A stretch of 64,000 nt of DNA from Marsupella aquatica (taxonomy: Eukaryota > Plantae > Marchantiophyta): NCBI GenBank assembly GCA_973895155.1, contig OZ316892.1:1-64000 (forward strand). Direction: 5' to 3'. Shown piece by piece: positions 6,481 to 59,930 of this stretch (positions within the stretch are counted from its first letter, which is position 1; every line of letters starts with the position of its first letter). The notes under the pieces were generated by a model that worked only from the letters and a program-made list of their open reading frames with translations, was not told the origin of the DNA and did not search any database. The translations under genes were made by a program, and so were the position numbers.

Positions 6481-8295
6481 CTAATGATTTCTTATTAATT
6501 TCTTCTAGTGATGCCCATCTTGCAGTCTTATGTAAACTGTCAGTGAAATAAGTGTCACTCCCCCTATAAAAGAGGGGAGTAAGCCCATTCCCTTCAATTA
6601 TCTGAGCTTTGCCTAAATACACACATTGCACTCACCCATGGTGGAATGTAAGTTTATGGCATTCAAAGTCCAAACTCCAGTTTGACTGCAACCAGCTAAA
6701 TTGTAGGGTGGACTCCCTTGCCAATTAACTGCTGAACTTATTGTTGTTAGTTTAGCAAATGAGTAGCTAAACTATTCACTTAGTTTTCTCACTTTGATAT
6801 CTTTTCCTCACTTTTACTCTTTCTCTCTCCTTGGTATGTTTTCTCATGTCAACATCTTTTGTTCAACGCACGGGCATTGGTCTAGTTATAGATATGAATA
6901 CTCCCTCAAATGCATAGCACAACAGAGTGCCCCAAAAGTGCAGAGATTTTGGTACTCTGGAGCTAGTCTGGATCTAGATATATCCTAATAACAAGGAACT
7001 GGCACTCCAGCTTGCTTTGATGAAAAAAGTCACAATGCCATTACCTTCTTATAAATTTACCCTTGTACATTTTATGGTTCAGATTGTTGAACGATTCAAA
7101 GTGTAAGCTCATATGGGATCCCATCCGGGTCCCATGCATCTAATCATTAAACTGTTAAACCCTTTCAAGGTATTATAAACACTTAATGAACACTCAACTA
7201 TTATTTGATTCCTAACCATAACAATCTTTATGGTGCAACCTCTCGCCAAGTAATGAGTATCCACTGATTCCACCAGGCTACAAGTAGTCAATTCAGATTG
7301 GCGGCAGAAGAATAATCATTTTGCCTTGAGTAACTCTGAAGTGTGATTCATTTATGCCTGGTTTGGCCTTGATTTGTCATCCGTCACACCTGGTCATCCC
7401 GCCCCTATCCTGACACCGTCCCAACCTCATCCCAACCCTATCCCAACCCCACCCGGTCCCAACCACACCCCGTAGGGCAACACGTAAACTTGCCCGTTAA
7501 CTCAAACCGGGCATTTATCCCACACAAAGATCATCCAACCCCAGGGGCAGGTGAATAATCATTATGCATGGAGTAACTCTGGAATGTGACTCATTTCTGC
7601 CAAGGGAAGATCATCCAAACCCAAGGGAATGCAGCACATTGAACATGGTCAGAACATTGAACTACACAAACAAGGAGGGAGCTCGACCTGTACTTGCTCT
7701 AGGTTGGTCTCCTAGTGGTGTTGGCTATGCTGATGAGGAAGAAGCCTGAAGCACTTGTTGCTGCAAGCTGCCTCTCTCCGGCCACAATTCCAGGATCCTG
7801 AAAATTAAGCTTCACACCCTGACTTGGGCGTATGCCCAGGTTGACATTTTCCCTCCCTATCATTCTTATTGTTCGGAGAACATGATTGACAGTGAGTTTT
7901 GAAGTAAATTCTGGTGTATTATCCTTTTCCTTTTAATTAGTAGATATTTAAAAAGCAGAAGGGTTTGCAGAATTTATCACAAAGGACATGGTTACATTTC
8001 ATTATATTGAGTTTATGATGGTTTTATTACATTTTGCTTTGAACTTTTTATTGAATACTCCACGTTTCTCAGATTGCACAAGGGGATCTGGTTGTTGGGA
8101 TGACTTTGTGAGTGCAAAATCTACTTCCTTTAGTAGTTGGGAAGCTATCGGCCCTCTTTCACAAGATATTGCCTTACACGTCATTCAAAAGTAAGTTGGC
8201 TTCAAGCACTATTGTTGCCAATGATATGAAGCTCTACATGCACTTGGACAAATGAGTTTCAGTTTCAGGTTTCTTGTCATTGTTTTTGGTCATCC

Positions 8296-8800
8296 TCAAG
8301 ACACTAAATCCTTTTAGTGTTCTGTGCAGTGTCATTCATGCCAACATTGTACAAATATTGAGGCGAGACCAAGGAAAGAACTGTACACTCCTTGGGACAA
8401 ATCAATAGTAGATTTATGAAGGTGAGTACCTCAACATCAAAATTCCCCCTTTCTCCCCACCTACATGTTGAATTATTCATAAATCTAATGATAAAAATTA
8501 CAACTTACGGCATTTCGGTACTCAGATCTGAAATGGTTCGTGTACTATTTGACCGGAATTGTAATATTTACTGAATTGGAATTAGAATAAACAAATTCAG
8601 TGGATTTGTTTGCTATAGTGTGGGAAAATCTAAAAAAATTGAACACCATAAAATTAAAGTTTACACTTTATTGGATTCTTTGTTATAAAAACATTCTTGA
8701 ACTGTTTGTTAGAAAAGTTCTTAAACTAAAGTCCTCAAGGTTTTGAAGGACAGTATTTTTGAATGGCTATGATCACAGATCTCACCTTTTGGACGTGGTT
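8296..8800 (+). pseudogene. 5' remnant of a fourth TET/JBP-like dioxygenase gene (paralog of 55658-56210)
   Basis: Nucleotide similarity to the upstream exon/intron of the 55961 gene (GAAGGTGAGTACC; TTACAACTTACGGCATTT.GGTACTCAGATCT.AAATGGTTCGTGTACTATTTGACCGGAATTGTAAT). 8597-8800 translates SVDLFAIVWENLKKLNTIKLKFTLYWILCYKNILELFVRKVLKLKSSRF*RTVFLNGY versus SVDVFATVWEDLKKLDTVKLKFALHWILCHDNILELFVKKVLKLESSRFSRTLFLNGY. TGA at 8744-8746. Confidence 0.9.
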
Positions 8801-14520: not shown

Positions 14521-14551
<31 letters not shown>

Positions 14552-27750: not shown

Positions 27751-28461
27751 TGCTTGCCATATTCAGGGGAAACTAGGTTCTCATTGTGTGTAAATTAAGG
27801 CTTCAAGAAAAAATGACTAGTCTTGAGGGCTATAGTTCAATTTTATTGATCATTGATCTGAGGTTTTGTCCTTCTTCTACATTGCAGGATGTTGTGCATC
27901 TATAGTGAGAAATAATTATATCTCGTCATTGAGTTTGATGACCTGGACTTCAAGAGGCATGGACTTCTCCCCACATTTTGAAATTACATTCTGGTGGGTG
28001 CAATAGGTCCAATTTATATGTGTGGTGCAACGTTACATTGAAAAACCTCAATTGGTGCTTCTACTAGAGCAAGGTTGAGGTGAGCCGGGGAGTTGGAGTT
28101 TCTATCTAATCTTTGCAATTCATATTTCAATGAGATCTGTGCAGACACATTGACCGTGTATTTTTCTACAAGTTTTATTCTTCAAAAATCCAAAAAATGA
28201 CATTTCCACAACCCACTCAAGTAAGTAACATAATATCTATTTTTTTCAATCATTTTTAAAAAAATTATTAATATAATAGACATTATGGATTTAAGTAACT
28301 AAAAAATATTATATTATTACAAGTTTATATTAATTTTTTAATCAAAATTCTGATTGGTAATAAATATTTACTATATTTAATAGTGTAACAGTTTTATTTA
28401 AAAAGTTTGGAAAACAATTTGATTAGTACTGACACAAAAATGCAAATTGACAATTTTGCAG

Positions 28462-29838
28462 ATGCTCCATAAACGAAGGGAGAGGAGAAAAAATGAAAAT
28501 AAATTTCATGAATATGGCGCCGAATTTTCTATCATAACATTTTGTTCAATATGGGATTATCTAAGCAAATTATGTGAATCTAAACAACAATTTATTTTAT
28601 ATTGGATTTTAAAAAATGAAAATATTTTTGTATATTTTGTTACACACATTTTACAAATAAATGTGTCCAATTTTTCAAGAGCTAAATTTTTGAATGGGTA
28701 TAACAACTGCAGAAGTGCAATTTCACCAATTCTCCCTCTTCAAACACTTCAACAAACCGAGAAAATCTTTCATCATCATCAACAGAGACAAAAATTGCCT
28801 CCACTATTGAAAAAATTCATGGGAAAATTTCACATCCTTAACCTATCCCAACTCCGTACCTTACAAGTAGAGAGGGTAGCTTCTTGTAAAGTTGACAATA
28901 CATTCTCTTCAACACAAGTAGAAGTGCAACAAATATCAAAATCACAACTGAAAAAATTGACTGGAGTGATAATGGGAAATTGGAATGAAGACATGACTAA
29001 AACCAATCATAGTAATCTTACATTCACATTTGAGCGTTATCCATCAAATTTTCTAGTGATAGAGAAATCTGAAAATATTGTTTACTTTTACGATAAGTCA
29101 GGGAAAAAGCCTTGGCTTGTAGCAATGCTTATGCACCAACAAATATTGGGAGTGACAACATTACAATTCATTCGAAAACTTTTGAGTGCATTGTTTGTTG
29201 CTCATTCTCCATTTCAAAGAGGCGAGGGGAAAAAAGCTTTTGACAGCTTCATGACAGGATATGGTCCTTGGAATAGCAGTTACATGGGTGGCCGTTTGAC
29301 TTATTACACACACCAGAAGAAGATGAATACCATTTTCGATGATTGCCTTGATGTCAAAGATTTTGAGAAGTGGATCGATAAATATTCACATATTGAACTT
29401 ATGGATATTATATTGGGGCTTTATATGTGGTGGTGCCCAGAGATGATAGAGTGTTTTTTGGAATACTCTCATCCGTACTTACTATCATCTGATCGTGACA
29501 AATATCATGGAAGTGAAGAGCAGATAGGGGAGAATGTTAGACCTAGTACTTACCAATTATATATAAGTGAGGATTATTGTGTGCAAACACATGCTGATGA
29601 TGATGCAACTGACTTCACCTTAGCGTATGCTAGTCATCCTGACCATTTCCTTTCAGCAATCGATTTTGTAATTCCAGAGTATGGAATTCGATTGCCAATT
29701 AGAGATGGAAATCTATTTGCATTTCGGAGCGATGTTGTTCATGGTACAGGCTTTAGAATGAAAACATCGAATCCTGCATATGTTGGAGCTATTACCGTGA
29801 ATAAAAACCTCAGCAGACTGATGCAAAAATTACATTAA
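28462..29838 (+). CDS. TET/JBP-like Fe(II)-dependent dioxygenase, paralog 1 (458 aa)
   Basis: Intact ORF. C-terminal double-stranded beta-helix signature QLYISEDYCVQTHADDD (HxD, His 29590) ... FVIPEYGIRLPIRDGNLFAFRSDVVHGT (distal His 29740). The ATG follows TTTTGCAG; putative intron 28221-28461. The ORF is certain; the family assignment is motif-based. Confidence 0.72.
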   Translation: MLHKRRERRKNENKFHEYGAEFSIITFCSIWDYLSKLCESKQQFILYWILKNENIFVYFVTHILQINVSNFSRAKFLNGYNNCRSAISPILPLQTLQQTEKIFHHHQQRQKLPPLLKKFMGKFHILNLSQLRTLQVERVASCKVDNTFSSTQVEVQQISKSQLKKLTGVIMGNWNEDMTKTNHSNLTFTFERYPSNFLVIEKSENIVYFYDKSGKKPWLVAMLMHQQILGVTTLQFIRKLLSALFVAHSPFQRGEGKKAFDSFMTGYGPWNSSYMGGRLTYYTHQKKMNTIFDDCLDVKDFEKWIDKYSHIELMDIILGLYMWWCPEMIECFLEYSHPYLLSSDRDKYHGSEEQIGENVRPSTYQLYISEDYCVQTHADDDATDFTLAYASHPDHFLSAIDFVIPEYGIRLPIRDGNLFAFRSDVVHGTGFRMKTSNPAYVGAITVNKNLSRLMQKLH

Positions 29839-40600: not shown

Positions 40601-40764
40601 ATTTTGAAATATATATTTGGCATGCTTTTCTGATTATTGTTATTTAATAGTTCCAGATAGTTTGGCCGGAGATATGTATTTTGAAATATGTATCTGGCAT
40701 ACTTTTCTGGTTATTGTTATTTAATAGTTCCAGATAGTTTGACTGGAGATATGTATTTTGAAAT
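40601..40764. repeat. Tandem duplication of about 77 bp inside the predicted intron of dioxygenase paralog 2
   Basis: ATTTTGAAATAT.TAT.TGGCAT.CTTTTCTG.TTATTGTTATTTAATAGTTCCAGATAGTTTG occurs twice. Confidence 0.85.
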
Positions 40765-40806
40765 AAATATCTGTATAAATTAAAGTATGTTTTTGGAATT
40801 TTTCAG

Positions 40807-42249
40807 ATGGCAAAACGAAAGTTTTGGAAAGTGAACAAACAAATGAAGGAAGATGGCAAATATGAGTATGAGAAAATGAAATTTGCAATGGACGTTTTCA
40901 TTCAAATTTTTTCAGCGATCATGATATTGCATCCACGTTCACAAAAGTTTGCCATGTTATTTCTTCTTCAAGAAGATAATATTTTTCAAGCATTTGTACA
41001 AAATGTATTGAATATTAAACATACTGTATCGAAAGCAATGATATATAATGCTTACTATAGATTTAAAGAAATTGGACCACCAAAAACCTTTACTTCTTGC
41101 GCATGGGAGAATATCTGTGATATTCTTGATCATCATTATTCTTTAGATTCAGTACCCTATAGTATAAGAAAATACATCCATTTTCTTAGGTCATCTACCT
41201 ATATTGAAGAGTGTGTAAAAAGAGAAAAAAATATGCTAGAGAAAAAAGAAATGGTGTTTGAAAAAATTATTTCCCAATTTTGGTGGGGAAATGTGAATCC
41301 AATGGAATTAGTGCAAGGATTTTGGGGAAGAGTTGATGATGAAGGTGAATGTTTTTATCGCTTAGAATTAGAAAAAACATTACAAATACTTTCTAGAAGA
41401 AAAAACAAAGGGAAAGAAATTGAAATTGAAGAGGCACCTATATATAGGGAGCTTCCAATTTCTTACGTTGAAATCCAAAAAACAAAACAGGTTACGGAGA
41501 TCTATGATAAAATCTCAAGTGAGCTAGTGGGTATCCATATTCGCCCTAAAGATGTTCATAAATCTTTTACTATATTGATGCGAACTTATCTTAAAGATCT
41601 TTTTTGTGCTCATCCAAGTTCAAAAAGATCTAAAACTAGAGCATCCTATATGAGTGAAATGGTGGGGTTCGGTCCATTTCACCATACATGGACACCTGGA
41701 AAAAATGTTACATCTTTCTACACTCATAGTAATAAGTTAGTAAAAGCTTCAAAACCTTTAAAAGATTTTGGTAGATTTATTGATCGATTTGCACATGGGG
41801 CTGTGGTAGAAATTTTAATGTCTATGTGGTTTAGATATTATCCTACGTTATTACATACTTTTCTTAGATGTTGTAACCCTTACTTAGAAACTTCCCAATA
41901 TATTAAGGAAGGTGTTGAGATACCATTTTTTGATAAGCACATGAAGAAGGGACCTCCTGCTTATCAACTATTCATTACTAGAGATTATTGTTCACGTTTT
42001 CATGTAGACAATGATAGGACAGAGTGGACACTAGCATATACTAGTCACCCTGATGAACATATTTCACCAGTTGATTTTGTATTTGCCAAACATGGATTTA
42101 TATTACCTTTGCATAATGGTGATTTATTTGCATTCAAAGGCAAACATCTCCATGGTATGGCTTTTAGAAAACCAACAGAAAATCCTGCATATATTGCAGC
42201 TTTAGTTATGAATAGTGGCTTAGGACAATTATTAAATAGAATAGAGTAA
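40807..42249 (+). CDS. TET/JBP-like Fe(II)-dependent dioxygenase, paralog 2 (480 aa, most divergent)
   Basis: Intact ORF. SEMVGFGPF; YQLFITRDYCSRFHVDND (HxD, His 42001); DFVFAKHGFILPLHNGDLFAFKGKHLHGM (His 42151). The ATG follows TTTTCAG; putative intron 40428-40806. Confidence 0.72.
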   Translation: MAKRKFWKVNKQMKEDGKYEYEKMKFAMDVFIQIFSAIMILHPRSQKFAMLFLLQEDNIFQAFVQNVLNIKHTVSKAMIYNAYYRFKEIGPPKTFTSCAWENICDILDHHYSLDSVPYSIRKYIHFLRSSTYIEECVKREKNMLEKKEMVFEKIISQFWWGNVNPMELVQGFWGRVDDEGECFYRLELEKTLQILSRRKNKGKEIEIEEAPIYRELPISYVEIQKTKQVTEIYDKISSELVGIHIRPKDVHKSFTILMRTYLKDLFCAHPSSKRSKTRASYMSEMVGFGPFHHTWTPGKNVTSFYTHSNKLVKASKPLKDFGRFIDRFAHGAVVEILMSMWFRYYPTLLHTFLRCCNPYLETSQYIKEGVEIPFFDKHMKKGPPAYQLFITRDYCSRFHVDNDRTEWTLAYTSHPDEHISPVDFVFAKHGFILPLHNGDLFAFKGKHLHGMAFRKPTENPAYIAALVMNSGLGQLLNRIE

Positions 42250-45857: not shown

Positions 45858-47029
45858 TTTTCTGGCTGCAAACAGATTGTCGTCTGCTTACAAGTAGTTC
45901 TGGCACCTGCAGCACGTACGTACCGGCACCTAACGATGATCCTCTACCGTTACATACATTGACATCCTTAATTGGAAGGAGCCAGACAGTGCAGCAACCC
46001 CACTACTGTGAACTCGTTAACCCGTGAAGAAGTAATTCTGGCTCGTTCAACTTGGGATGTCAGAACAGGACTGCAATATAGGTCATGCACATGCGTGCAC
46101 AATTGTAAGAGAGCAACGATGAAGAAAGCTGAAGCTTCATTGATTGCGGAATCCCACAAATCGATCACCACACAAACCTATTCTCTAATGAGACAACCAG
46201 TCATTCTCAATCCTGATATCTCTCACACTAGCACACTTCGCCCCTTGTAACATTCGATTGTGCTGACAGGTCTAGCTAGGCAGCAAGTATCACAATCACC
46301 ACTTCCACATTTGTGACTTCTAGTCGGTCCCTCCCTCTGTCTGAGACCATAAAACTTAGCATGTAGACCCCAGTTGCCACCATGATTTCACAACCCTTCT
46401 ATATTCCCAACCTCTGTCAGCCCTTGCACTCTCTAGCTCCATTTGGGACCCTTTTTGAAAAGTGGGAACAAAGATTGAAGACTACTTCTGCCCCCCTTGG
46501 GGCCTCTCTCCTCGACCAGTGAGAAGAAGGACAAGACAAAGTTTAGGGTGGAGAATGAATACTGCACATCAAAGCACCGAGAGGGGGGGGGGAACGGAGC
46601 AGAGAAATAAACTCAGTGATTTAGTTTTCACAGGCCTGCCAAGGCAAGATGCATGAAACAAGCTCTCTAATACCATGATGAATTTTGAATACTTTACTCA
46701 ACTTGATCATCCCACGTAAAGTTAACAAGAAATAGCTTTGCCCCAAACTGACTCCTAAGTCACAAAATAGGAGTAGGAAATAATCTGGGTCTAACAAAGC
46801 ATATCCTATTTAAACTTCAAACAGCTAGAGAGAGCTGACCTGCATGCCAATGTGATCTACATTAAGAAACCGAAGCTAAAGTATGGATCTCTCCCCTGAA
46901 ACTTTCCCACCGAACACCATACTTCCATCTAAGTAGTCTGATATTCATTTCACCCTTCATCTCCTGAACTTCACTTTTGAAATCTTCCAAGTAATTTACC
47001 ACACTGTCCGGCCTCTATAAGAATTCTTC

Positions 47030-50000
47030 TCAATTCTCACACCGAAATTCAGGATACTTGATCCTCACAATGGTTGCTACAAGACGCATAAAATTGTTGC
47101 CCAGAGCCTCAGGACTTGTAGACACAACCCATTCACACAGCTCCTGGTCACTTTTCCCTTTGATTTCAGGAATTGCTCGGAATAAATCGCTCTGTATGTT
47201 ATCAAATCGCCATGCCTTCCACACAAAAAGCCGCAATCTCTCTCCTGATTCATCTTCACACTGATCTCCATACAGCCCTTCATGAAATCTCATCCCACTA
47301 GGCTGGTGTGGGAAGTGACACTTGAAACAAGTGTCTGGTCGAGAAGGAAACTTGTTATCGCAATTTGCACGGTTGTGTGTTCCTAGACACTTCACACATC
47401 GTCCCCGTACATAAGGACATTGCAAAATACCATGAGGAACACTCTTTGAGAGGGGACTCCAACACATCAAGCACTTTTTCCTATCCCCAGCAAATTTACG
47501 GATGATACAAATCTTATTCATGGCTTCGTCAATTCTTTGTTTGATGAGTGTTGGTCGAGCTCTTGCCACAACCGTGGTTGTGGTTCCTTTGCCTTGGGAT
47601 GATCCGAGTGATGATGCTGGTGTTGTTCTTTCACCTGGTGCTGTAACCCTAACACTCTGTCCTCCTTGTATGTTTTGGGAGATGCTCCCCTGAGATACAA
47701 TTTCAACCACTTCTGACCTAGCTTGTGATAATTCTTCGGCCTCATATTCCATTGGTAGTTCCTGATTGTCTGCTGCTTGGGAGCATATGTCACAAGGAAT
47801 TGCATCCGGGATGAGGTAACACATCTGTGGCTTACCATCAACGCTAGCATGTAGTGCAAAGCGACGACACATTTTTGTCTCCTCAATCCATTTGTTTGGA
47901 ATCTTGAAGTTGGAGTCCATCCTCAAGGCCTCATTGCGGTAGCTGGAGTTAGAAACAACAGTGCTTATTGCTAATAAACCATCACGCCCAGCTCGGCCAG
48001 ATTCCTGATGAAATTGCTCAAAGGACCTGAAATTACCTCTGTGAATTACAAGTCTGATTGACTTGTAATTATAGCCAGAACCAATGACCCCAGTTGCCAC
48101 CATGATTTCACAACCCTTCGACTCCCACTTCTTCAAGGTTTTCACGGTGTCTGCTGTGCTACATCCTGCATGCAAAAATGTACAGCACAAGTTCCTGGCT
48201 TCGAGTAGCTTTGCCATCTCTTGGACTTCATCTCTTGTTAGGCAATAGACAATGGCCCGGTCATGAACCAGGCTAGATCTCTTCCAATCTTGAAGCTGTC
48301 TAACTATTTCTCCATCCATGTCAGGCACTTCCACAACCATGTATCGGATGTTTGGCCTAACAGTAGAAGAACGAACCCAATGTAATCTTGAACCCAAAGT
48401 CAGTTCGATATCAGATTGTTGTGTGGGTGGTAATGTCGCTGTTAATCCTATAATTTGACAGGGAACTTTCATTAGAGAAATCAGATTTCTCATTTTTGGA
48501 CGGAAATGACACTGTAGTGTATGAATCTCATCAAAAACAATCGAATGCAATCTTTGTGTAGCTTGCAAGTGGTTTGCAAAGACACCAAATGTATCTGAAT
48601 CAGCTGCAGTCTCGATAGATACAAAAACAATTGCAGGTGTTACTCCTATCCCGAGTGCAAATCCACTTGTAAACACAGTGTGACCAATTCCTGCTTTTCT
48701 GCATTCAGATAAGTGACCCGATATGAGAGATTTGAATGGGACTACCACAATCACTGTTTTGTCCATCAATGTGGAAGGGGCCATGAAAATCAATGACTTT
48801 CCTGTTCCAGTGGGAAGTACAGTTACAAAATCCACAGTGTTTTCAATAGCCAAAGCAACAGAGATTGCTTGTTCAGTTGACCTCCACCTTTTGTGACCCA
48901 ACTTGTGTAGAGCTATGGAAGCTCTTATACTTGTGTCGTGACAGATGTGCAGTGCCGAATCAACATCTCCCACAACTGATGTTGATGGTTCTCCATAGGC
49001 AGGGCAATAAACAACCCTTGTCTTGCTTGGAACATGATCAATTTCAAGCTCAATGTCATGACGTGGACGTAGAACAGTAGTGGTTCTTGGAAAAGGATCT
49101 AGTGTGACTTCCCTGCAACCTGTTGTTGAGCAATCCAGATGAATCAATCTTGGGGACTTATCCGAAAGATTAAGCAATGCATGCCACTTATCTGTAAATA
49201 TTCGGAATGCTCTCAAGAGATGTCCATCAATAGCTCTTAAATCTTTTACACTTTGAGCATAATGATGTCCCATTGTAGCTGTTGTATGTCCACCTGCCAC
49301 ATCTACAATATCATCAAGATCTTGAGTGCGTTGGTCTCGAATCTTTTCTGAAAAAAATGCTGCTAGGTGTCGGTATTCTGAAAGCCCGAATGTGACTCCA
49401 CAACGCTTAAAGAAATTGTTGTGTATGCTCTTGGAAAGATCATGTGCATCTTGCTTTTTATCCATATCAACGAACCAACAATCATCATAATTACGGGCAA
49501 CCTCCTTTCCCCATATTTTCTGTGCAACATAAGATTGTGTAGGCCTCACCAAACAAAAGTATACCAGAAACAGAGTTCTTAAAGAACTTGGAAGAAACCG
49601 TATAAGTGGTTTCATTGGAGCACCTGTATTTGCACCTTTATGATAGGTTTGAAAGAGCGCTATTGTATGATGCTCTAACAATTTTGTTGTTGGATCATCA
49701 TCTGGGCCTGCTGTTGCCCAATAAAATGACCTCTCGCTTGTGGCTGTGTTGCGAATCAAGAAACTGTTGTACTCTTCGCCCCTTGCTGGTAGACCGGCAG
49801 TGAAATGTATAAGCAGATTCAATTTTTCTTGTAAATCAGAGCAAGCAGTCATCCACTTATAAAGTGTGATATCATTCCAAATGACATCATTTCGATCTGT
49901 CCGCCCGAGAATAAAGTGTCCTCTAATCTTAGGATCAACAAACAAGTGTGTTAGTAGATCGAGGCCATGTTGCTGAAGAATCCGGTTGCGAGGATCTATG

Positions 50001-52000
50001 ACAAAGTTGTACCCAACTTCTGTGTTGTTGACATCGTCGTAAATAGCACGACTCTCCTTAAGTAATTTGTCAACCCAATCTGTTCGGAGACCAAGAAGCA
50101 CATCACAATTTAAAATTGAGTGGGCTTCTTGAATAATAGCATGCACCATATCTCGAAAATTGTCGATTGTAATAGATTCACCATCAACTAGACATGCTGT
50201 ATTATTGGCATTCAATGGTACTAGTCTTGGCCATACTGGAGTCCCTACAGTAATCCTATTTGCCAAGCGCAGAGATTGCGATACAATAGTAAATGGAGTA
50301 GGTAGTGCTATGTCACTTAAATATTGAAGAAGTCGATCAGCTTCTTCATTAAGAATGGTGCTTGGGTTTTTATGCCAAAAACATTGTGCAAGGTGCATCA
50401 AAATGGTCGCCCTAGCCCAATATTTGAGTATCGCCATTGGTTGTGTAAGATGACGAACATGCCGAAATGAATACTCTTCTGCTTCTGGACTGTGGCCAAC
50501 TTTTATGAGTGAATGTAAAATAAGAAACCGAGTGAAAATACAGTTCGCTGCTCTTCCTGCTTCAAGTGTTGCAGGCATCTTTGGAGTCCAAAGATGAATC
50601 AACACATTATGTAGAACAGCTAAATCAACATTGTCAATAGAATTGTCATCTAATTCATTGAGTTGACTCATGAATTTTTGAAGAGCAATTTCCATTTCTT
50701 CTCTGTTTGTTTGAAAAACATGAATGTCCGAACTAAGCTCATTAGAAGATGATCGAAGCAAGCAGAGAATGAATTCTGTGATTATATCATAGTACCTACT
50801 CCTTGATGATTTTGAGTTCAATTGATTGAATCCCACTGCAACATCATCATTGATATTTGTCTTCTCCACTAGTCTTCTCAATCTGTAATCCACCTCTTTA
50901 AGAACCAAATCTTGTACATTGTTCATGTAGATAGTCACCACTTGACTGACATATGAGAGTGGAGATTTGCCCTGCTTTGGTGGTGGGAGCATCTGTGCTT
51001 TCACCTGCAAAAATGGTACCCCTTTTGGCATGAATTGGGCCGCAAGCTCATGCCATTTAGACTGTGCTAGCCATGGAGTTAGCTCAGCAATTGGAGGTAG
51101 AAGTTCTAACCGCAAAGACTGAAAATGGTCATCAAACTCCTTTGTGATTATAGCCCTCAAACTTTTAGATTGCAAGTGACAGTCATCCCCATCGAGATTG
51201 AGATTGTGATGTTGAACACCGAAGTATTTGAGGCCTATAACACGATCTGAGAGGATTTGAACTTGGCATTCACTCTTCACATTGACATAGGACAACTCAG
51301 GATGTTTTCTCAAACGATGATTGGACATTGACCTTTTCTCCCCACAATAGTAGATGCATTGTTTGCAAGAAAAGCCGTGTCGAATGACAACACCTGGTAC
51401 TGGAGAAAGCAATGCAGCTGGTGGATCTCTTGTATATGGTAATATGGATGTATCATCCATGCTTGTAAAAGAGAACTGTTGTAAGCTCCTCAATAGTTGA
51501 TGACTGTCGTAGTCTGATGCTATTCGATGACACCTTGATTTCTCCCGTTGATGCTTTTGAACATGATGAATGATATTGATATTTTCATTGTATATGAGTA
51601 CCGAATGACACTCTATACATACAAGGAAAACCAATTCCTCATGACGAACAACGCAGAGATTAACACTTCTCAAGATCTCTGGTGTACCAGAATGATCTGG
51701 TGTAATGCACAATCCTTCATTAACCGCCAAGTCGTGTGGATCAACAAATCTTTCGACTTGATTAACATGGATTGTGTCATAGTGTCGGCGAAGACTATCG
51801 CCGCGTGTGTAATACTGACAACACATATTATCGGGGCATGCGAACATCCCATTTTCAGACTTGTGGAGGATCTCCACAGTGCCATCGCAATGCTTGAATT
51901 TGAACGTCATCCTGTGCTCAAAACGTTTGTGAGCATCTCTTGCTCTTGCTGATTGAAAAATCTGCTCACACGCACTACATGGAAAAATGGTTGTCTCCAT
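47030..52000 (-). CDS. Zn-finger / tyrosine-recombinase-like / RecQ-type SF2 helicase fusion (1656 aa), telomere-linked-helicase-like
   Basis: Intact intronless ORF. N-terminal C2H2 fingers and a DUF3505/OrsD-like Cys/His region. Helicase motifs WRSTEQ, LPTGTGKS, VPFKSL, DEIH, LTATLPP, IVYCLTR, VATGVIG, QESGRAGRDG, then a CRR..C..CDIC Zn site and a Cys-rich C-terminus. First ATG at 52000 (the track start at 52024 is TTG). Confidence 0.88.
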   Translation of the reverse strand: METTIFPCSACEQIFQSARARDAHKRFEHRMTFKFKHCDGTVEILHKSENGMFACPDNMCCQYYTRGDSLRRHYDTIHVNQVERFVDPHDLAVNEGLCITPDHSGTPEILRSVNLCVVRHEELVFLVCIECHSVLIYNENINIIHHVQKHQREKSRCHRIASDYDSHQLLRSLQQFSFTSMDDTSILPYTRDPPAALLSPVPGVVIRHGFSCKQCIYYCGEKRSMSNHRLRKHPELSYVNVKSECQVQILSDRVIGLKYFGVQHHNLNLDGDDCHLQSKSLRAIITKEFDDHFQSLRLELLPPIAELTPWLAQSKWHELAAQFMPKGVPFLQVKAQMLPPPKQGKSPLSYVSQVVTIYMNNVQDLVLKEVDYRLRRLVEKTNINDDVAVGFNQLNSKSSRSRYYDIITEFILCLLRSSSNELSSDIHVFQTNREEMEIALQKFMSQLNELDDNSIDNVDLAVLHNVLIHLWTPKMPATLEAGRAANCIFTRFLILHSLIKVGHSPEAEEYSFRHVRHLTQPMAILKYWARATILMHLAQCFWHKNPSTILNEEADRLLQYLSDIALPTPFTIVSQSLRLANRITVGTPVWPRLVPLNANNTACLVDGESITIDNFRDMVHAIIQEAHSILNCDVLLGLRTDWVDKLLKESRAIYDDVNNTEVGYNFVIDPRNRILQQHGLDLLTHLFVDPKIRGHFILGRTDRNDVIWNDITLYKWMTACSDLQEKLNLLIHFTAGLPARGEEYNSFLIRNTATSERSFYWATAGPDDDPTTKLLEHHTIALFQTYHKGANTGAPMKPLIRFLPSSLRTLFLVYFCLVRPTQSYVAQKIWGKEVARNYDDCWFVDMDKKQDAHDLSKSIHNNFFKRCGVTFGLSEYRHLAAFFSEKIRDQRTQDLDDIVDVAGGHTTATMGHHYAQSVKDLRAIDGHLLRAFRIFTDKWHALLNLSDKSPRLIHLDCSTTGCREVTLDPFPRTTTVLRPRHDIELEIDHVPSKTRVVYCPAYGEPSTSVVGDVDSALHICHDTSIRASIALHKLGHKRWRSTEQAISVALAIENTVDFVTVLPTGTGKSLIFMAPSTLMDKTVIVVVPFKSLISGHLSECRKAGIGHTVFTSGFALGIGVTPAIVFVSIETAADSDTFGVFANHLQATQRLHSIVFDEIHTLQCHFRPKMRNLISLMKVPCQIIGLTATLPPTQQSDIELTLGSRLHWVRSSTVRPNIRYMVVEVPDMDGEIVRQLQDWKRSSLVHDRAIVYCLTRDEVQEMAKLLEARNLCCTFLHAGCSTADTVKTLKKWESKGCEIMVATGVIGSGYNYKSIRLVIHRGNFRSFEQFHQESGRAGRDGLLAISTVVSNSSYRNEALRMDSNFKIPNKWIEETKMCRRFALHASVDGKPQMCYLIPDAIPCDICSQAADNQELPMEYEAEELSQARSEVVEIVSQGSISQNIQGGQSVRVTAPGERTTPASSLGSSQGKGTTTTVVARARPTLIKQRIDEAMNKICIIRKFAGDRKKCLMCWSPLSKSVPHGILQCPYVRGRCVKCLGTHNRANCDNKFPSRPDTCFKCHFPHQPSGMRFHEGLYGDQCEDESGERLRLFVWKAWRFDNIQSDLFRAIPEIKGKSDQELCEWVVSTSPEALGNNFMRLVATIVRIKYPEFRCEN

Positions 52001-52009
52001 CGATCCTAG

Positions 52010-52300
52010 GGGTTGTGGGTTCAAGGGGAAGTTGTGTCTTGGGTTGGGTAGGTTGAGAGTTGTGTGTTGGGGGTTGAGTGAGTTGGGGATTTAATTTGTT
52101 GTAGAGTTGGGTGTTGGGGGTTCAGGAATTGGAAGTTGTGTCTTGGGTTGGGTAGGTAGACAGTTGTATGTTGGGGGTTGAGGGAGTTGGGGAGTTATGT
52201 GTTGGAGGTTGAAGGAGTTTGGAGTTTGGTTGTGGGTGGGGGTTGACATTGTGGGTTGGGGGAGTTGTGGGTTGGGAGTTGCCGGGGAAGTTGTTTGTTG
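52010..52300. repeat. G/T-rich telomere-like degenerate array immediately upstream of the helicase start
   Basis: Runs of GGGTTG, GAGTTGGG and GTTGTGTGTTGGGGGTTGAG; the reverse complement resembles 14452-15162. Confidence 0.8.
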
Positions 52301-52689
52301 GGATAGAGACAACCATGTTGTAAAAGATGGACAAGAAAGATGATAAAGAAAATCCAACACAAAAGGGAAAATCAACACTAAACCTTTGAACCTTTGATCC
52401 CTGAGTATAGACAGCCACAACAAGGGCAGACTGACACATTGGGCAGTCAGTTGTAAAAGATGGACAAGGAAGATGATAAAGAAAAGCCAACACTTAGTCT
52501 AGAAAGAGGGGAAATTCAGAGAAAATCTGGACTGTCAATAAGAAGAGATAGATGGGCAAGATCATGTGCAAGGACTTCAATTCAATCCAATCTTCAATGG
52601 AAAATCCCAGTTCTTACAATATACGGTTAACATAATTATGTATACAAATCATCATTCCTGCTTATATGTCACAAGTATCTCCTCGACAA

Positions 52690-52890
52690 GACAAGTCAAC
52701 AATAAATATCAACCTGCTTATCCGCCACAAGTATCTCCTCGATAGGACAAGCCAACAATAAATATCAACCGTGAAAAGTCAAAAATAAATGTTAGCCGTG
52801 GAAAGTACCTCCTTGACACGACAAGTCAACAATAAATATCAGCCATCGAAACAATAAATATTAGCATGGAAAGTCAACAATGAATGTTGG
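52690..52890. repeat. Degenerate short repeats (GACAAGTCAACAATAAATATCAACC)
   Basis: Five to six degenerate copies. Confidence 0.7.
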
Positions 52891-53890
52891 CCGTGGATTT
52901 TAAATGAACGGGCCAGATGCTTGTATACACACGACCACACCATCTTCTTCACGACCGCCACTACACTTGTTACAGGCCTCCAAAACAGCCACACAGCCGC
53001 TGCACTACGGCCGTAATGCGCCGATAATATATATAGGACTTCTGATTGCTGGTCTCATAGCTCGCAAGGTGCACTGTCAAATTCCCATAACGCCACGTTC
53101 GACTGGCTCAGCTCCGCTGTCAAGAACGATGGGCTTAGCCTTCTTAAGGTCGATCCACTTACGGTGACAATTCTCCGAGGAGAGCTCCTGGTCAAACTCT
53201 TGAGTGTCGTCCACCTTGAAGGAACCGGAGCTAACTCCTTTCCAGCTTCCTTTCTTCAACTGCGCATGGCCAGCCTGCTCTACTTTCAGCTTTCCAGATG
53301 CTACTGCGCGTCAGGGAGAGCACTATGGGTTGTGGGTTGGGCAAAGCCTTCCCTCAAATCCACAATAGTTTTGAATCCCTTTCCACCAGCCGGCTTAGCC
53401 CTGCCTCACTGATGTCCCCACCTCGCCAGAAAGCCACATTTTCATCCTTGTAAAGGGATCGTGCACTTTTGGAAGACCGAAGCCTAACGGGTGCAAGATT
53501 GGGGATATCAGCGGAACTAGGGATTCCCCGGAAAACCAGCATCCAGGCAAGGCATTCTTCAGTTTCAGCATCCTTTCCTGAGCTTCCAATCCTTGCTGAG
53601 AATCAAAGGGCAAGAGGGATTCCAGAGCCCACTCTAGTGTTTGATGCTATGGAATGACATCTAATTTTAGGGTCCCTAAACCCTAGTGACATCTATTTGT
53701 AGGAAAGAAGTCTTCATTGTTTACAAACTTGATTCATGCTTGTTTCATAGCAGTCCTTGTATTAATTAAAACATCAATGTGCTCTTAGTTAAGAAAACTA
53801 CTATTGGGGAATAAATGACCTTGCCATGAGTACTCTATTTGGATGGCAGTTTTTACTGCAAAAGTGAGGAGGTCTGGCTGGGATGGGACA

Positions 53891-54133
53891 TCATTGGGTT
53901 TGCGCATTCTTAAGCCATGAATTGCTGACTATTTTGTTCAAGATGACTCCAAAATTCAATGAATCCAGTATATACTAGATGGACTAGGTCTATGCAACTA
54001 GGATGGGAGACCTTTTAATATTCATTGGGTTTGCACATTCTTAAGCTATGAATTGCTGACTAGTTTGTTCAAGATGACTCCAAAATTCAATGAATCTAGT
54101 ATATACTAGATGGACTAGGTCTATGCAACTAGG
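53891..54133. repeat. Tandem duplication of about 131 bp
   Basis: CATTGGGTTTGC.CATTCTTAAGC...GGACTAGGTCTATGCAACTAGG occurs twice. Confidence 0.9.
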
Positions 54134-54628
54134 TTAGGTTTTCTCTTCTGACCATGTTGTCATTATTATAACAAAAATTAACAATCTTTATTTAGTCCAA
54201 TTTTAACTCACAAATTTCCAACCATACTTTAATAACCTATAATTAATTTTTATAGATAATTTTTGGTTACATGCATGAATGATCTTAGTGTACACATGAT
54301 ATATGACATTGAAATCTACAATTTATTATGTAACCCTAAGGATTATCATTGCAATGACAATAATTCTTTTGAATCCTTTGTATTTTATCTCATTCGTATC
54401 CTTGTTTGAAATGGTGTTGCAGAGTTCTTTTGGCTCTTCATGTCAACATAGAATCAAGGTGTAGGGTGAGCAATTGTAGTAGTGGATCAGATCTCTGCGT
54501 GGGCTCACGAACCTGAAGGTAGGGCTGGTGTCCATCCTATACACAGTGACACTTCCAATTCATTCCAATTACAACAAATATCTTTCCAGCATGTCAACTA
54601 AATTGCAATGTCTTATTGATTTGTAGGC

Positions 54629-55309
54629 ATGGCACGTAACAAGCAGAAGGCCAAGAAGCCTAAGACGGAGGTGAGCAACACACAGGTGTCTTGCACAGAT
54701 TGTGAGAATTTCTCCAAGAGTCAAGTGTACCAGAAGGCAGCTCATTGTTGTGCCATTTGTGATGATGGTGGGGGCTTGGTTATCTGTGATGGCCCATGCA
54801 CAAGACATTTCCACCTAAACCCTGAGTCTAACCTTGCTGTAGAGAACAATTGTCCAGGGGTGGGGCTCCCCTCTGCACACAAGGGAGCCTGGATGTGCAC
54901 TGATTGTGTAGAGAAGCAAGCTAAGTGTGCACAGTGTGGAAAGTTGGGGTCTTATGAGACCTTTGCTGATGCCGGACTAGTTGTTAGGAAATGCCCTGAC
55001 AGATTTTGCATAAGATTTTATTGTTTGTCATGTTTGCCTACTCATGCCACAGTCTGCCCACTTCATACATGCAAGGCATGTGGTGAGCATGATGATGAGT
55101 ATTGGACAGACATAGTCCATTGTGTTAGATGTCCCACAATGTGACATTTTCATTGTTTGAAGGACCTTCAAGCAGAAGGCTATGCTTGTGACAGAGAAAT
55201 CTATGATCACTCTGCACATGGCGTTGATCGATGGATCTTTTACTGTCATCGCCATCCGATTGATCCTACTTTGCATACTCCTGTCAGAGATCACATATCT
55301 TGGCTTTGA
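54629..55309 (+). pseudogene. Stand-alone EDM2/NSD-type composite PHD-finger gene (226 codons) with one premature TGA at 55142-55144
   Basis: CAICDDGGGLVICDGPCTRHFH...WMCTDC..KQAKCAQCGKLGS...C.RFYC..C...CPLHTCKAC...CVRCPT. The frame continues past the TGA as HFHCL...RWIFYCHRHPIDPTLHTPVRDHISWL*, matching the EDM2 PHD tail motif (IYC..H.ID..L.TPVRDH). Confidence 0.82.
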
Positions 55310-55960
55310 AGCTGAACGAAGTGGGTTGGTACAGTGCCCCTAATGTGGATGTATTGTTTGGAGATTACAGAGAGTTCATTTTTGATGAGAAGGGCCATTG
55401 AAATATTAGGCAACAGTTATCTTGTGCTTACATGTGGCTAGGTACATGCCACTAAAAACTTACCTTAAGCCTTCCATGATCTCTTCAGACTGAGCAATCA
55501 TTTTGAAAATTAATAAAATTATAAACTTATTGTTATGTGTCTATGAAGTATAAGGCTTTCGGATGACAAATTCTTAGTTTGTATAAATTCTTGATTCTGA
55601 TTCAATGGGTAGTCCTTCATTTATAACATACTTTATATGTATTATCACAAAACAATACTCAAGACACTATCTCCTTTTTGTATTCTGTGCAGTATCATTC
55701 ATATCAACATTTGTACAATATTGAAGCCAGACCCAAGAAAAGAAGTGACAACTGCTTTCGACAAATCAGTACTTTGGGAAGGTGAGTACCTAAACATCAA
55801 ATTTATTTCTTTCTGTCCTCCTAAATCTTAAATGGTTCATAAATCCAATGACAAAAGTTACAACTTACGGCATTTTGGTACTCAGATCTTAAATGGTTCG
55901 TGTACTATTTGACCGGAATTGTAATTTTTACTAAATAAATTATTTGTTCTTACATGGCAG

Positions 55961-57325
55961 ATGGGAAAAAGAAAGCATAATACTTTAAGAAAAAAAGAAT
56001 TGGGGGAAGATTTTTCTGTGGATGTATTTGCTACAGTGTGGGAAGACCTCAAAAAATTAGATACCGTAAAATTGAAGTTTGCACTTCATTGGATTCTATG
56101 TCATGACAACATTCTTGAACTTTTTGTTAAAAAAGTTCTTAAACTAGAGTCTTCAAGATTTTCAAGAACACTATTCTTGAATGGGTATCAAAATTGTAGA
56201 AGCCATATCATTCAGATCTTTCCTCCTGAGGTGTTCATTGAAATTGATGATATCTTTTTTCATCATGGTTTCAGACTAAAATTACCTCAACCTTTGAAAA
56301 ATTCAATTACTATGTTTTCTAATCTTGACATTAGAAAGCTTAAACTTTTTCAAAAAGAAAGAGATAATCTTTGTAGAAATGGAGGAACTTATGCTAAAGT
56401 TGAAGTAGACGTTCAACGTATTTCCTCTTCAAAACTAAAAACACTTACTGGTGTAATTTTAGGTGATTGGGATCAAACTACAACAACATTTACCTCTGAT
56501 CCAAACTTTATTTTCTTAAAATTTCCATCAGACCTCATTATCGTAGAAGAAAAGAAAGGATTTACCTATCTTTTTGATAGGTCTGGAGTCAAACCATATT
56601 TGATAGCAATGATATTCCATCAAGATATCCTATCACCTGATTCAATGGTCTTCATTCGAAGATTATTAGAACAATTACATGCTGCCCATCATGTTATCCA
56701 AAGAGGGAAAGGAAAAAGATCATGGGAAAGTAAGATGACAGGGTTTGGTCCTTTTCATAATCCTTACAAAAAAGATCAAAGTTGTGTATCTTTTTATACT
56801 CATGAACAAAAGATAAAGACATTCTTCAATCAAGATTGTCCCGATGCAGCCAATTTTGAAGACATGGTAGATAAATATTCTCATCGAGAGTTAATCGACA
56901 TTATTCTTGGACTCTACATGTGGTTATGTCCACAAATGTTAGACAGCTTTTTAGATTATTCTCATCCTTACTTATGTTCAAATGATTATAAGATGAACAT
57001 ATTTGAGAAAGCACTAAAATGTAAAGGTCCTAGTGCTTATCAATTATATATTAGTAAAGATTATTGTGTAGAAACTCATGCTGATCATGATACAGCAGAA
57101 TTTACTTTATGTTATGTTAGTCATCCTGATGCCAAGATTTCTCCTGAAAACTTTGTTATTCCAGAGTATGGAATATTATTACCTATTAGAGATGGTAATT
57201 TATTTTCATTTTGTAGTGACATTATCCATGGCACAAGATATAGAATTCCAACATCAAATTCTATATATGTAGGAGCTGTTACCATAAACAAAAAATTAGA
57301 TAGACTTTTACAAAGAAAACATTAA
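55961..57325 (+). CDS. TET/JBP-like Fe(II)-dependent dioxygenase, paralog 3 (454 aa)
   Basis: Intact ORF. SKMTGFGPF; YQLYISKDYCVETHADHD (His 57077); FVIPEYGILLPIRDGNLFSFCSDIIHGT (His 57227). The ATG follows GGCAG; putative exon 55693-55781 and intron 55782-55960. Confidence 0.72.
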   Translation: MGKRKHNTLRKKELGEDFSVDVFATVWEDLKKLDTVKLKFALHWILCHDNILELFVKKVLKLESSRFSRTLFLNGYQNCRSHIIQIFPPEVFIEIDDIFFHHGFRLKLPQPLKNSITMFSNLDIRKLKLFQKERDNLCRNGGTYAKVEVDVQRISSSKLKTLTGVILGDWDQTTTTFTSDPNFIFLKFPSDLIIVEEKKGFTYLFDRSGVKPYLIAMIFHQDILSPDSMVFIRRLLEQLHAAHHVIQRGKGKRSWESKMTGFGPFHNPYKKDQSCVSFYTHEQKIKTFFNQDCPDAANFEDMVDKYSHRELIDIILGLYMWLCPQMLDSFLDYSHPYLCSNDYKMNIFEKALKCKGPSAYQLYISKDYCVETHADHDTAEFTLCYVSHPDAKISPENFVIPEYGILLPIRDGNLFSFCSDIIHGTRYRIPTSNSIYVGAVTINKKLDRLLQRKH

Positions 57326-59199: not shown

Positions 59200-59410
59200 A
59201 AGGGACGCTTCTAAAAGCGTCTGGTGTGGATGGACGCTTCTGAGCGTCAAGTCAGAGTGGACGCTTTTAGAAGCGTCATGAGTTAAAGTACTTGGGAATA
59301 GTCGACGCTGCTGAAAGCGTCGGGAGTGAATCATTGGATAAGACTGGACATTTTTGGAAGCGTCGGTCAAAAAATGGTCGATGAGGGTAGACATTTTTGT
59401 TTAGCGTCCA
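59200..59410. repeat. Cluster of short hairpin-type inverted repeats GACGCT(T)-N4-6-(A)AGCGTC
   Basis: Perfect stems at 59204-59221, 59233-59248, 59260-59277 and 59303-59322, plus two degenerate ones. Confidence 0.85.
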
Positions 59411-59561
59411 GAATAGAACAAATGCTTGAAAAATGTTGAAAATAAACTGTCTTCCAAGAGGAATGGTAGAGATCATCATTCCACATAGCCCTCCACTGAA
59501 ATTTTGCCGTGTCCACACAAGACAACCACGCTTTGATTAAAGACCAGTGCTAGATTCTTCA

Positions 59562-59930
59562 TCAAAAATCTTCTGGCTTGGGAATCCAAGTGGTACTCAA
59601 GACCATTGATGGAATATGGTTGTCATTGGGGTTCACAACATAAAAATCAAGGTCATAAAATTCTTCTCCAATTTGTAATGGCACTTGTTTTACTCTTCCC
59701 CAAAGTGAAATTAATCGTCCATCGATTGAGATTTGAGCACATATGGGCTGAACGTGTTGGCAAACTAATTGATGAAACAGTCTGTGGGACAGTAAATTTA
59801 TTCCGGAGCCTGGATCAATAACAAAGTGCTGAATAGTGTGTCCTTCCAATTTAATCTCCCCTTCAAGAGAATACTGAAATGCGCGGGAGAGAAAATCACA
59901 ACAATCCATAGTAGCTTTTACGGTCCACAT
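59562..59930 (-). CDS. Retropepsin-like aspartic protease domain ORF
   Basis: FVIDPGSGINLLS (D-x-G-S active-site-like) followed by G...VPLQIG...LDFYVV and MVLS..W, typical of gag-asp proteases. Confidence 0.6.
   Translation of the reverse strand: MWTVKATMDCCDFLSRAFQYSLEGEIKLEGHTIQHFVIDPGSGINLLSHRLFHQLVCQHVQPICAQISIDGRLISLWGRVKQVPLQIGEEFYDLDFYVVNPNDNHIPSMVLSTTWIPKPEDF

What the first reader, a model, noticed from the sequence alone, without database searches (positions are those of the whole stretch)
47030..57325. Candidate new mobile system: recombinase-helicase plus PHD histone reader plus TET/JBP-like DNA dioxygenase
Seen: three compact, intron-poor genes within 10 kb. A YR-like/RecQ fusion (minus) diverges from an EDM2-type PHD gene and a TET/JBP-like gene (both plus). 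They are intact or nearly so, while every neighbouring host gene is a fragment. Known: TET/JBP genes travel on KDZ (Kyakuja-Dileera-Zisupton) and Plavaka-type transposons in fungi; tyrosine recombinases mobilise Cryptons and Starships; EDM2 PHDs read H3K9me2-containing marks. Inference: a large self-mobilising element that reads silenced chromatin and modifies methylated bases to evade or rewrite host silencing. I do not know of this combination being described in plants. Termini were not identified.
Basis: partly seen in the sequence, partly recalled or inferred. Interest (0 to 1): 0.92.

Follow-up and report, generated by a model that had tools for sequence, protein, structure and literature searches.

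The report
Repeated PHD-TET cassette beside telomere-type helicase
In a land-plant genome (likely a bryophyte), a repeated gene pair for a predicted histone-reading finger protein and a predicted DNA-base-oxidising (TET-like) enzyme sits next to a low-copy gene of the fungal telomere-linked helicase type; these are likely two separate mobile passengers rather than one new element, and the pair likely helps transposons escape methylation silencing.

Summary
The three genes exist, but the evidence favours two neighbours over one element. (1) 47030-52000(-): an intact 1656-aa protein with the domain order of fungal telomere-linked helicases (C2H2 fingers, OrsD, middle domain, RecQ helicase). Its only full relative found is from the liverwort Calypogeia fissa (58%). 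Tyrosine-recombinase motifs are visible by eye; my fold test failed. (2) The PHD gene carries a premature stop (W172). (3) The TET/JBP-like ORF is intact, keeps HxD...H, and has three more copies in the window, none beside a PHD or helicase gene. In public runs the helicase gene lies at about flank depth, PHD relatives far above it in 4 of 4 runs, and TET about ten-fold above in 2 of 4. Contigs of matching raised depth tile PHD through TET. A broken NAD-kinase fragment at flank depth separates helicase from PHD. No termini or empty site were found. Best reading: a multicopy PHD+TET anti-silencing cassette of an unidentified DNA transposon beside a low-copy TLH element. The plant-type TET family lacks the usual 2-oxoglutarate-binding arginine (0 of 22), so its chemistry may be unusual.

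The parts
47030..52000 (-). Intact single-ORF TLH-type gene, 1656 aa: C2H2 fingers (aa 8-29, 55-78), OrsD/DUF3505 (120-233), middle domain with YR-like motifs, RecQ-type helicase (1044-1341), Cys-rich C-terminus
   Evidence: 58% identity to Calypogeia fissa CAM6130039.1; nearest Atlas clusters mostly ascomycete, one with OrsD in 65% of members
49121..49933 (-). TLH middle domain (aa 690-960) with candidate tyrosine-recombinase residues R740, K788, R877-H878, H905, Y914; Ser at the usual HxxR histidine position
   Evidence: motifs by eye, all identical in the liverwort relative; structure test inconclusive
52005..52300 (+). Degenerate G-rich, telomere-like repeat array directly upstream of the TLH start; same repeat family as the C-rich array at 14450-15160
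   Evidence: local score 142 against a maximum of 113 in 200 Markov-3 shuffles; tandem repeats
53150..53600 (-). Frameshifted host NAD-kinase fragment between the helicase and PHD genes
   Evidence: Pfam PTP-NADK E 3.8e-9; frames; flank-level depth
54629..55311 (+). NSD-type tandem-PHD gene, 226 codons, with a premature stop at codon 172 in this copy; member of a highly repeated family
   Evidence: up to 31 variant contigs at one site
55693..55781 (+). Predicted upstream exon (splice motifs by eye), shared with the TET copy at 8.3 kb; out of frame with the TET ORF
   Evidence: 83% DNA identity of 55655-55936 with 8292-8576; sequence
55961..57325 (+). Intact TET/JBP-like 2OG-Fe(II) dioxygenase ORF, 454 aa, H373-x-D375...H423; no Arg at the usual co-substrate column
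   Evidence: dN/dS about 0.3 against the 28.4-kb paralog
28423..29838 (+). Intact paralog of the TET-like gene (48% identity)
40762..42249 (+). Intact distant paralog of the TET-like gene (28% identity)
8292..8797 (+). 5' fragment of a fourth TET-like copy (83-84% DNA identity to the 55.7-56.2 kb copy)

Best explanation
The block is likely two separate mobile passengers side by side: a low-copy telomere-linked-helicase (TLH)-type gene, and a repeated PHD + TET/JBP-like cassette that is likely the anti-silencing cargo of a DNA transposon whose transposase was not found in the window. Shown: the ORFs, their domains, the stop in this PHD copy, four TET copies in the window, and unequal read depth. 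Inferred: the PHD fingers would bind histone H3 tails in silenced chromatin, and the Fe(II) dioxygenase would oxidise or otherwise modify 5-methylcytosine on the element, so that methylation is lost or unreadable. Because the usual 2-oxoglutarate-binding Arg is missing, the reaction may be non-standard, as it is in CMD1. Inferred: TET genes are passed between elements and paired with different chromatin genes (PHD here, a decayed APOBEC-like gene at 7.6-8.2 kb). Inferred: the TLH protein would cut and rejoin DNA with its YR-like domain and unwind it with its RecQ domain to move itself, and probably entered bryophytes from fungi. This copy of the cassette is half dead (PHD stop).
For: contigs of 4 of the 6 listed runs; summed depth is a rough signal, not a copy count. 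Median bin depth for flank / TLH / spacer / PHD / TET: X4 783 / 688 / 542 / 63,207 / 5,300; X2 (57% read) 469 / 353 / 309 / 20,997 / 484; X5 2.0 / 5.2 / 2.3 / 67 / 2.7. In X6, single contigs of depth 63, 53, 58 and 46 tile 54734-57178, against 4-8 for flank contigs; one crosses the PHD stop into the spacer and one crosses the TET intron. X4 shows indel variants of the PHD-TET spacer. X4 contigs with 0-2 differences over 400-1255 bases cover parts of the TLH gene at depth 432-631, like flank contigs (296-525). The other three TET copies lack PHD or TLH neighbours and share no flanks beyond the 8.3-kb exon. TLH architecture matches the published definition (10.1101/2024.02.27.582403). The 11 fungal TET-bearing transposon lineages are DDE transposons or Helitrons, and TET genes move passively between them (PMC12730594). 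Dioxygenase fold class. Purifying selection on TET.
Against: No genome assembly, so no flanks of other copies, termini, target-site duplications or transposase were seen; 'transposon cargo' is inferred from repetition and precedent. TET amplification is seen in only 2 of 4 runs (X4, X6), not in X2 or X5. No single listed contig spans PHD to TET; linkage rests on matching depth. One helicase bin (48338-49004) is about twice flank depth in X2 and X4, and the 51.7-53.0 kb stretch is 2-4 fold raised, so TLH is not strictly single-copy. X2 and X4 share this locus with the window, so there is no polymorphism evidence. The TET model is poor (pLDDT 39.8; best Z 8.2 to OGFOD1, NgTET1 7.1), so TET versus another 2OG oxygenase subfamily is not settled by fold. 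No expression data.
Confidence: 0.6

Rival explanations
1. One large element moved by the YR-like/RecQ protein carries PHD, TET and captured host fragments; the amplified PHD-TET copies would be deletion derivatives moved in trans.
For: Adjacency; intact TLH ORF amid broken host genes; YR-like motifs conserved in a liverwort relative; related telomere-like arrays at 14.5 and 52 kb in inverted orientation; a window full of host-gene fragments.
Against: Derivatives should keep both ends, yet the TLH left flank (46337-47003) and the 53.0-54.3 kb spacer are at flank depth in X2 and X4; other TET copies have no TLH neighbour; Starship captains read into their cargo (recalled), whereas TLH reads away from PHD-TET; no termini found; YR fold unproven.
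Confidence: 0.15
2. The TET-like genes are a domesticated host family in a dispersed tandem cluster; the PHD gene is an unrelated high-copy repeat that inserted next to one member.
For: Four same-strand copies in 50 kb with 28-48% protein identity among the three intact ones and dN/dS about 0.3; TET not amplified in X2 and X5; PHD far more repeated than TET.
Against: Matching raised depth across PHD, spacer and TET in X6 and X4; about ten-fold differences between closely related runs; none of the close relatives looked up carries an organism name from an annotated genome, which a conserved host gene would more likely have.
Confidence: 0.17
3. The 454-aa protein is another kind of 2OG-Fe(II) oxygenase, or is inactive, and has no role in DNA methylation.
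For: No Pfam Tet_JBP hit; best fold match is OGFOD1; co-substrate Arg absent; Atlas recognition 1742, below the 2300 mark.
Against: All ten best named Atlas hits share the Tet_JBP/2OG-FeII_Oxy_6 family or clan; weak PF20515 hits in the 40.8-kb paralog and in 3 of 32 relatives; iron triad kept in 44/46, 40/47 and 36/36 rows.
Confidence: 0.08

Closest known systems
Fungal and choanoflagellate telomere-linked RecQ helicases (TLH; M. oryzae TLH1, S. pombe tlh1, F. oxysporum TLH)
   Same: Single ORF of about 5 kb; two N-terminal C2H2 motifs fitting the published patterns; OrsD; conserved domain upstream of a RecQ helicase; telomere-like repeats beside it
   Different: In a land plant; low copy; not shown at a chromosome end; homology of the middle domain to the published TLH domain not aligned directly; the passages read do not call that domain a recombinase
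TET+ DNA transposons of fungi (KDZ, Plavaka, hAT7, IS3EU, EnSpm, ESTA, PHISTA, Helitron; Kojima 2025, PMC12730594)
   Same: Repeated, intact TET/JBP-like ORF with HxD...H, many diverged paralogs per genome, changing gene neighbours
   Different: Plant host; paired with a stand-alone tandem-PHD gene; no transposase or termini identified; co-substrate Arg absent; none of the 11 lineages uses a tyrosine recombinase
Chlamydomonas CMD1 on DNA-1_cRei and TET/JBP genes on Helitron2 families; PHD fingers as accessory domains of Chlamydomonas transposons
   Same: Green-lineage TET/JBP on transposons; an element with no recognisable transposase; PHD accessories; departure from standard 2-oxoglutarate binding
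   Different: No sequence match to CMD1 (fold Z 5.0); CMD1 keeps Arg410 but turns it away, whereas here the residue is replaced; land plant rather than alga
Starships and Cryptons (YR-mobilised DNA elements)
   Same: Candidate R-K-(H)-R-H-Y catalytic residues in the right order
   Different: No DUF3435 or other YR profile hit; fused to RecQ; no boundary or target motif found; gene reads away from the supposed cargo
EDM2 / NSD-type PHD cassette
   Same: Tandem NSD-type PHD fingers (weak Pfam hits)
   Different: Only 226 aa with no further domain; highly repeated; histone-mark binding untested; EDM2 features are recalled, not from a call

Membership tests
Telomere-linked helicase (TLH) | Two N-terminal C2H2 motifs (Cx2-3Cx8-14Hx3-5H; Cx2-5Cx11-16Hx4-5H) | tested here: met
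   aa 8-29 and 55-78 fit; two further fingers at 128 and 212; patterns from 10.1101/2024.02.27.582403
Telomere-linked helicase (TLH) | RecQ-type SF2 helicase domain | tested here: met
   DEAD E 1e-16, Helicase_C E 2e-15; the weaker hits include proteins named RecQ
Telomere-linked helicase (TLH) | TLH domain upstream of the helicase | tested here: inconclusive
   No named TLH protein was aligned; Atlas feature hits 0.94-0.97 to unnamed, mostly ascomycete clusters and 0.88 to an OrsD cluster; OrsD E 3e-7
Telomere-linked helicase (TLH) | Multicopy at chromosome ends beside telomere repeats | tested here: inconclusive
   Degenerate telomere-like array adjoins the start, but depth is 1-2 times flank and the window continues for 12 kb; chromosome position unknown
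Tyrosine recombinase | Catalytic R-K-H-R-H/W-Y in order on the YR fold | tested here: inconclusive
   R740, K788, R877, H905, Y914 conserved in 2 of 2 sequences, Ser at the HxxR histidine; model pLDDT 33.8 gave only helix-bundle matches
YR-mobilised cargo element (Starship/Crypton-like) | Recombinase and cargo share copy number, termini and an empty site | tested here: not met
   TLH, spacer and left flank at flank depth while PHD (4 of 4 runs) and TET (2 of 4) are raised; no termini. Test limited to contig depth; no assembly
TET/JBP dioxygenase | DSBH fold with HxD...H iron triad | tested here: met
   Triad conserved; nearly all of the top 50 fold matches are 2OG-Fe(II) oxygenases by title, NgTET1 Z 7.1, rmsd 5.0, 177 aligned (low-confidence model)
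TET/JBP dioxygenase | Match to Tet_JBP or Tet-like profile above cut-off | tested here: inconclusive
   No hit for the window ORF; PF20515 E 0.08 for a paralog and E 0.002-0.049 for 3 of 32 relatives, all under cut-off; Atlas 0.92-0.93
TET/JBP dioxygenase | Arg on the last core strand that binds the 2-oxoglutarate C5 carboxylate | tested here: not met
   0 of 22 close rows against 5 of 13 distant rows have Arg at that column; 18 of 21 close rows have Arg five residues after the last His instead. Column assignment is by sequence alignment only
TET/JBP dioxygenase | Activity on 5mC or T in DNA | not testable with these tools
   needs an assay
TET+ DNA transposon (KDZ, CMCT, Helitron) | Transposase, termini and target-site duplication enclosing the TET gene | tested here: inconclusive
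   No transposase among 115 frames scanned (15, 100); no Helitron-type end or inverted repeat around the cassette; multicopy signal present
EDM2-type PHD reader | Binding of H3K9me2-containing tails; EDM2 domain set | not tested
   only weak NSD-type PHD hits

The most novel reading that the evidence does not exclude
A TLH-type recombinase-helicase of fungal origin drives a Starship-like giant element in bryophytes that gathers host-gene fragments and an epigenetic toolkit (TET-like dioxygenases, tandem PHD readers, an APOBEC-like deaminase); its Arg-less TET family writes a non-standard modified cytosine into a land-plant genome.
Probability: 0.12. Interest if true: 0.9.

Novelty: new variant of a known kind. 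Interest (0 to 1): 0.56.

Why it matters
Land plants are generally held to remove 5mC with glycosylases and to lack TET enzymes (recalled). A repeated, selectively conserved TET/JBP-like family paired with a histone reader in a land plant extends the transposon anti-silencing strategy known from fungi and Chlamydomonas, and gives a direct test: look for 5hmC, 5gmC or new cytosine adducts in this plant's DNA. The missing co-substrate arginine makes unusual chemistry plausible. An intact TLH gene in a plant, away from any shown chromosome end, is a handle on the open question of how TLH genes spread and what their middle domain does. The headline claim of one new three-gene mobile system is not supported.

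Tried and rejected
No genome held, so no genome-wide linkage test. Scans for relatives with flanks found none: metagenome contigs with the TET and TLH alignments, viral contigs, prokaryote genomes; phage and plasmid tblastn gave only chance hits. YR test: PHROGs, Pfam and PDB-sequence searches blank; two-sequence AlphaFold model pLDDT 33.8, fold searches uninformative; this neither supports nor excludes YR. X6 shows no cover over 47671-50338 (most of the TLH gene) while PHD and TET are covered; no contig joins across, so this is not used as evidence of an empty site. No RNA holder listed. Termini: the 26-nt inverted pair 7161/57614 is about what chance gives by my rough estimate; the Helitron-end scan found 8 hits against 3-10 in shuffles and none after the cassette. 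An in-frame PHD-TET fusion through the upstream exon was rejected by reading the frames. Fungal contamination rejected: an X4 contig bridges the TLH 3' end into the flank, depth matches flank contigs, and the nearest relative is a liverwort protein. The TET tree (28 rows, quick method, long branches flagged) puts the window's three proteins apart from the named chytrid and amoebozoan hits but cannot show a donor. A finer map of cassette boundaries from reads is missing, which leaves the termini open. Print searches found no paper on TET/JBP or TLH genes in bryophytes, nor TLH with 'tyrosine recombinase', but the term 'TET/JBP' could not be searched as written, the Iyer/Aravind papers were not readable (one tried), and Repbase and all supplements were not seen; these may already list plant TET/JBP genes.
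Full report
Observation. The window is land-plant DNA: it holds an LRR receptor kinase, a PPR E motif, a NIP aquaporin, NAD kinase and PP2A pieces. A bryophyte is likely (inference from the nearest named relative below). No assembly is held. The three genes are at the stated places. The ORF 52000->47030 (-) is stop-free for 1656 aa and 55961-57325 (+) for 454 aa; 100 local shuffles gave at most 202 aa. The PHD gene (54629-55311) has TGA at codon 172, where both intact 220-226 aa relatives have Trp.

The helicase gene. Pfam gives OrsD/DUF3505 (aa 120-233), DEAD and Helicase_C. Two N-terminal C2H2 motifs fit the patterns published for telomere-linked helicases (10.1101/2024.02.27.582403, parts 1-2 of 4 read), whose ORFs are 4.7-4.9 kb. 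OrsD plus helicase in 1400-1500 aa subtelomeric proteins is also reported in 10.1101/721753 (passages). Of 13 hits, only one covers more than the helicase: Calypogeia fissa CAM6130039.1, 58% identical over 57% of the query. Atlas feature neighbours of aa 280-960 are mostly ascomycete clusters. So this is a TLH-type gene in a plant. Candidate recombinase residues R740, K788, R877, H905 and Y914 are identical in the liverwort protein; Ser stands at the usual HxxR histidine. No profile supports YR, and a two-sequence model failed (pLDDT 33.8). Earlier AI notes from this scan read the TLH domain as YR-like in fungi and mosses; they are leads, not evidence. A degenerate G-rich array adjoins the start codon and is related to a telomere-like array at 14.5 kb.

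The dioxygenase. It has three more copies in the window: 48% and 28% identical intact ORFs and a 5' fragment. Crude dN/dS against the 28.4-kb paralog is 0.45/1.41. A profile search found 72 relatives at E <= 0.001. I looked up 27 of them; three carry organism names (two Geranomyces, one Planoprotostelium), all distant hits, and the close ones are unnamed. The iron triad is kept in 44/46, 40/47 and 36/36 rows. The model is poor (pLDDT 39.8), yet nearly all of its top 50 matches are 2OG-Fe(II) oxygenases by title: OGFOD1 Z 8.2, NgTET1 Z 7.1 (rmsd 5.0, 177 aligned), TET2 6.4, CcTet 5.1, CMD1 5.0. The Atlas points to Tet_JBP and Tet-like clusters but with a low recognition value; Pfam hits are under cut-off. 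'TET/JBP-like' is therefore fair, membership unproven. At the column where 5 of 13 distant rows have Arg, 0 of 22 close rows do; 18 of 21 have Arg five residues after the last His. In TET2 and NgTET1 an Arg on this strand binds 2-oxoglutarate, and CMD1, which cannot use its equivalent, takes vitamin C instead (PMC7854593, passages). Non-standard chemistry here is an inference from a sequence alignment.

Do they travel together? Six public runs were listed, five holding the stretch or part of it, none RNA; I laid four on 41001-61000 at 85% likeness. All are contigs, so summed depth is a rough signal and not a count. Long, nearly identical pieces show the organism is in X2 and X4. Median bin depths, flank / TLH / spacer / PHD / TET: X4 783 / 688 / 542 / 63,207 / 5,300; X2, 57% read, 469 / 353 / 309 / 20,997 / 484; X5 2.0 / 5.2 / 2.3 / 67 / 2.7. 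In X6 the PHD and TET medians are 590 and 57, and single contigs of depth 46-63 tile 54734-57178 against 4-8 for flank contigs. So PHD is highly repeated in 4 of 4 runs, TET about ten-fold in 2 of 4, with matching depth across PHD, spacer and TET in X6, and indel variants of that spacer in X4. TLH, its left flank and the NAD-kinase spacer stay near flank depth. Against my reading: one helicase bin is doubled in X2 and X4, 51.7-53.0 kb is 2-4 fold raised, no listed contig spans PHD to TET, and TET is not raised in X2 or X5. Within the window, profile searches found one PHD gene and one TLH gene for four TET copies, flanks are unrelated apart from the 8.3-kb exon and intron, and GC3 differs among the three genes. 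No termini, target-site duplication, transposase or empty site was found.

Mechanism. Most likely (0.6), the PHD+TET pair is accessory cargo of a multicopy DNA transposon: the fingers would bind H3 tails in silenced chromatin and the dioxygenase would modify 5mC on the element, easing silencing. These steps are inferred. The TLH gene is likely a separate low-copy element that would move by its YR-like and RecQ domains; also inferred. A decayed APOBEC-like gene before the 8.3-kb TET copy suggests that TET genes swap partners. Rivals: one YR-driven element (0.15), a domesticated TET cluster with a chance PHD insertion (0.17), a non-TET or inactive oxygenase (0.08).

Comparison with what is known. 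Kojima 2025 (PMC12730594; parts 1-4 of 7 and passages read) finds TET/JBP on 11 fungal lineages, all DDE transposons or Helitrons, moving passively between them; the text has no mention of tyrosine recombinase, Crypton, Starship or PHD. In Chlamydomonas, CMD1 lies on an element without a recognisable transposase, other TET/JBP genes on Helitrons, and PHD fingers are accessory domains of several transposons (10.1101/2022.06.16.496473, passages). Starship captains carry an RKHRY pentad and stand first in the element (PMC10104507, passages). In Botrytis, TLH genes are flanked by Helitron-like elements (10.1101/2022.03.07.483234, passages). Passages of PMC10288648 and PMC8381367 added nothing. My searches listed no paper on these genes in bryophytes, but the Iyer/Aravind surveys, Repbase and all supplements were not seen and may cover plant copies.

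Verdict. Observation partly confirmed; interpretation partly supported. This is a new variant of known kinds: a land-plant TET/JBP-like family with an altered co-substrate site in a repeated PHD cassette, beside a plant TLH gene. It is not shown to be one new mobile system. Interest 0.56; the giant-element reading keeps probability 0.12 and would merit 0.9.

Noticed in passing
window 7630-8190 (+): Decayed AID/APOBEC-like deaminase exons directly upstream of the TET 5' fragment: Pfam APOBEC_C E 0.003, APOBEC3G structures E 4e-5 at best and about 0.02 for single-domain entries, degraded HxE and WSP motifs by eye in shifted frames. Suggests a deaminase+TET cassette as an alternative to PHD+TET.
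   Followed up: partly
window 14450-15160 (+) and 52005-52300 (-): Related telomere-like arrays (AACCCTC units and degenerate forms) in inverted orientation 37 kb apart, enclosing two TET genes, several host-gene fragments and the TLH gene.
   Followed up: partly
window 46366-46399: 34-base exact copy of a piece of the TLH helicase coding sequence (48086-48119), about 630 bases beyond the gene's 3' end; perhaps filler DNA at a junction.
   Followed up: no
window 6860-6886 (+): Decayed Helitron-like 3' end (hairpin remnant then CTAG; motif recalled, located).
   Followed up: no
window 903-3974 and 25327-27751: Duplicated segment (89-96% identity) with a gyrase B fragment in both copies and a phospholipase C EF-hand fragment.
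   Followed up: no
window 21225-23777 (-), 24332-24637, 34383-34679, 44500-45139: Frameshifted LRR receptor kinase and fragments of a PPR E motif, PP2A B56 and a NIP aquaporin: a mosaic typical of gene-capturing transposons.
   Followed up: partly
window 58300-64000 (-): Gypsy-type LTR retrotransposon (integrase at 63047-63871) with two extra long ORFs of no Pfam family tested or found and a 35-base hairpin at 59204-59277.
   Followed up: no
window 13376-14341: 121-base tandem array, 8 copies, about 96% identical.
   Followed up: no
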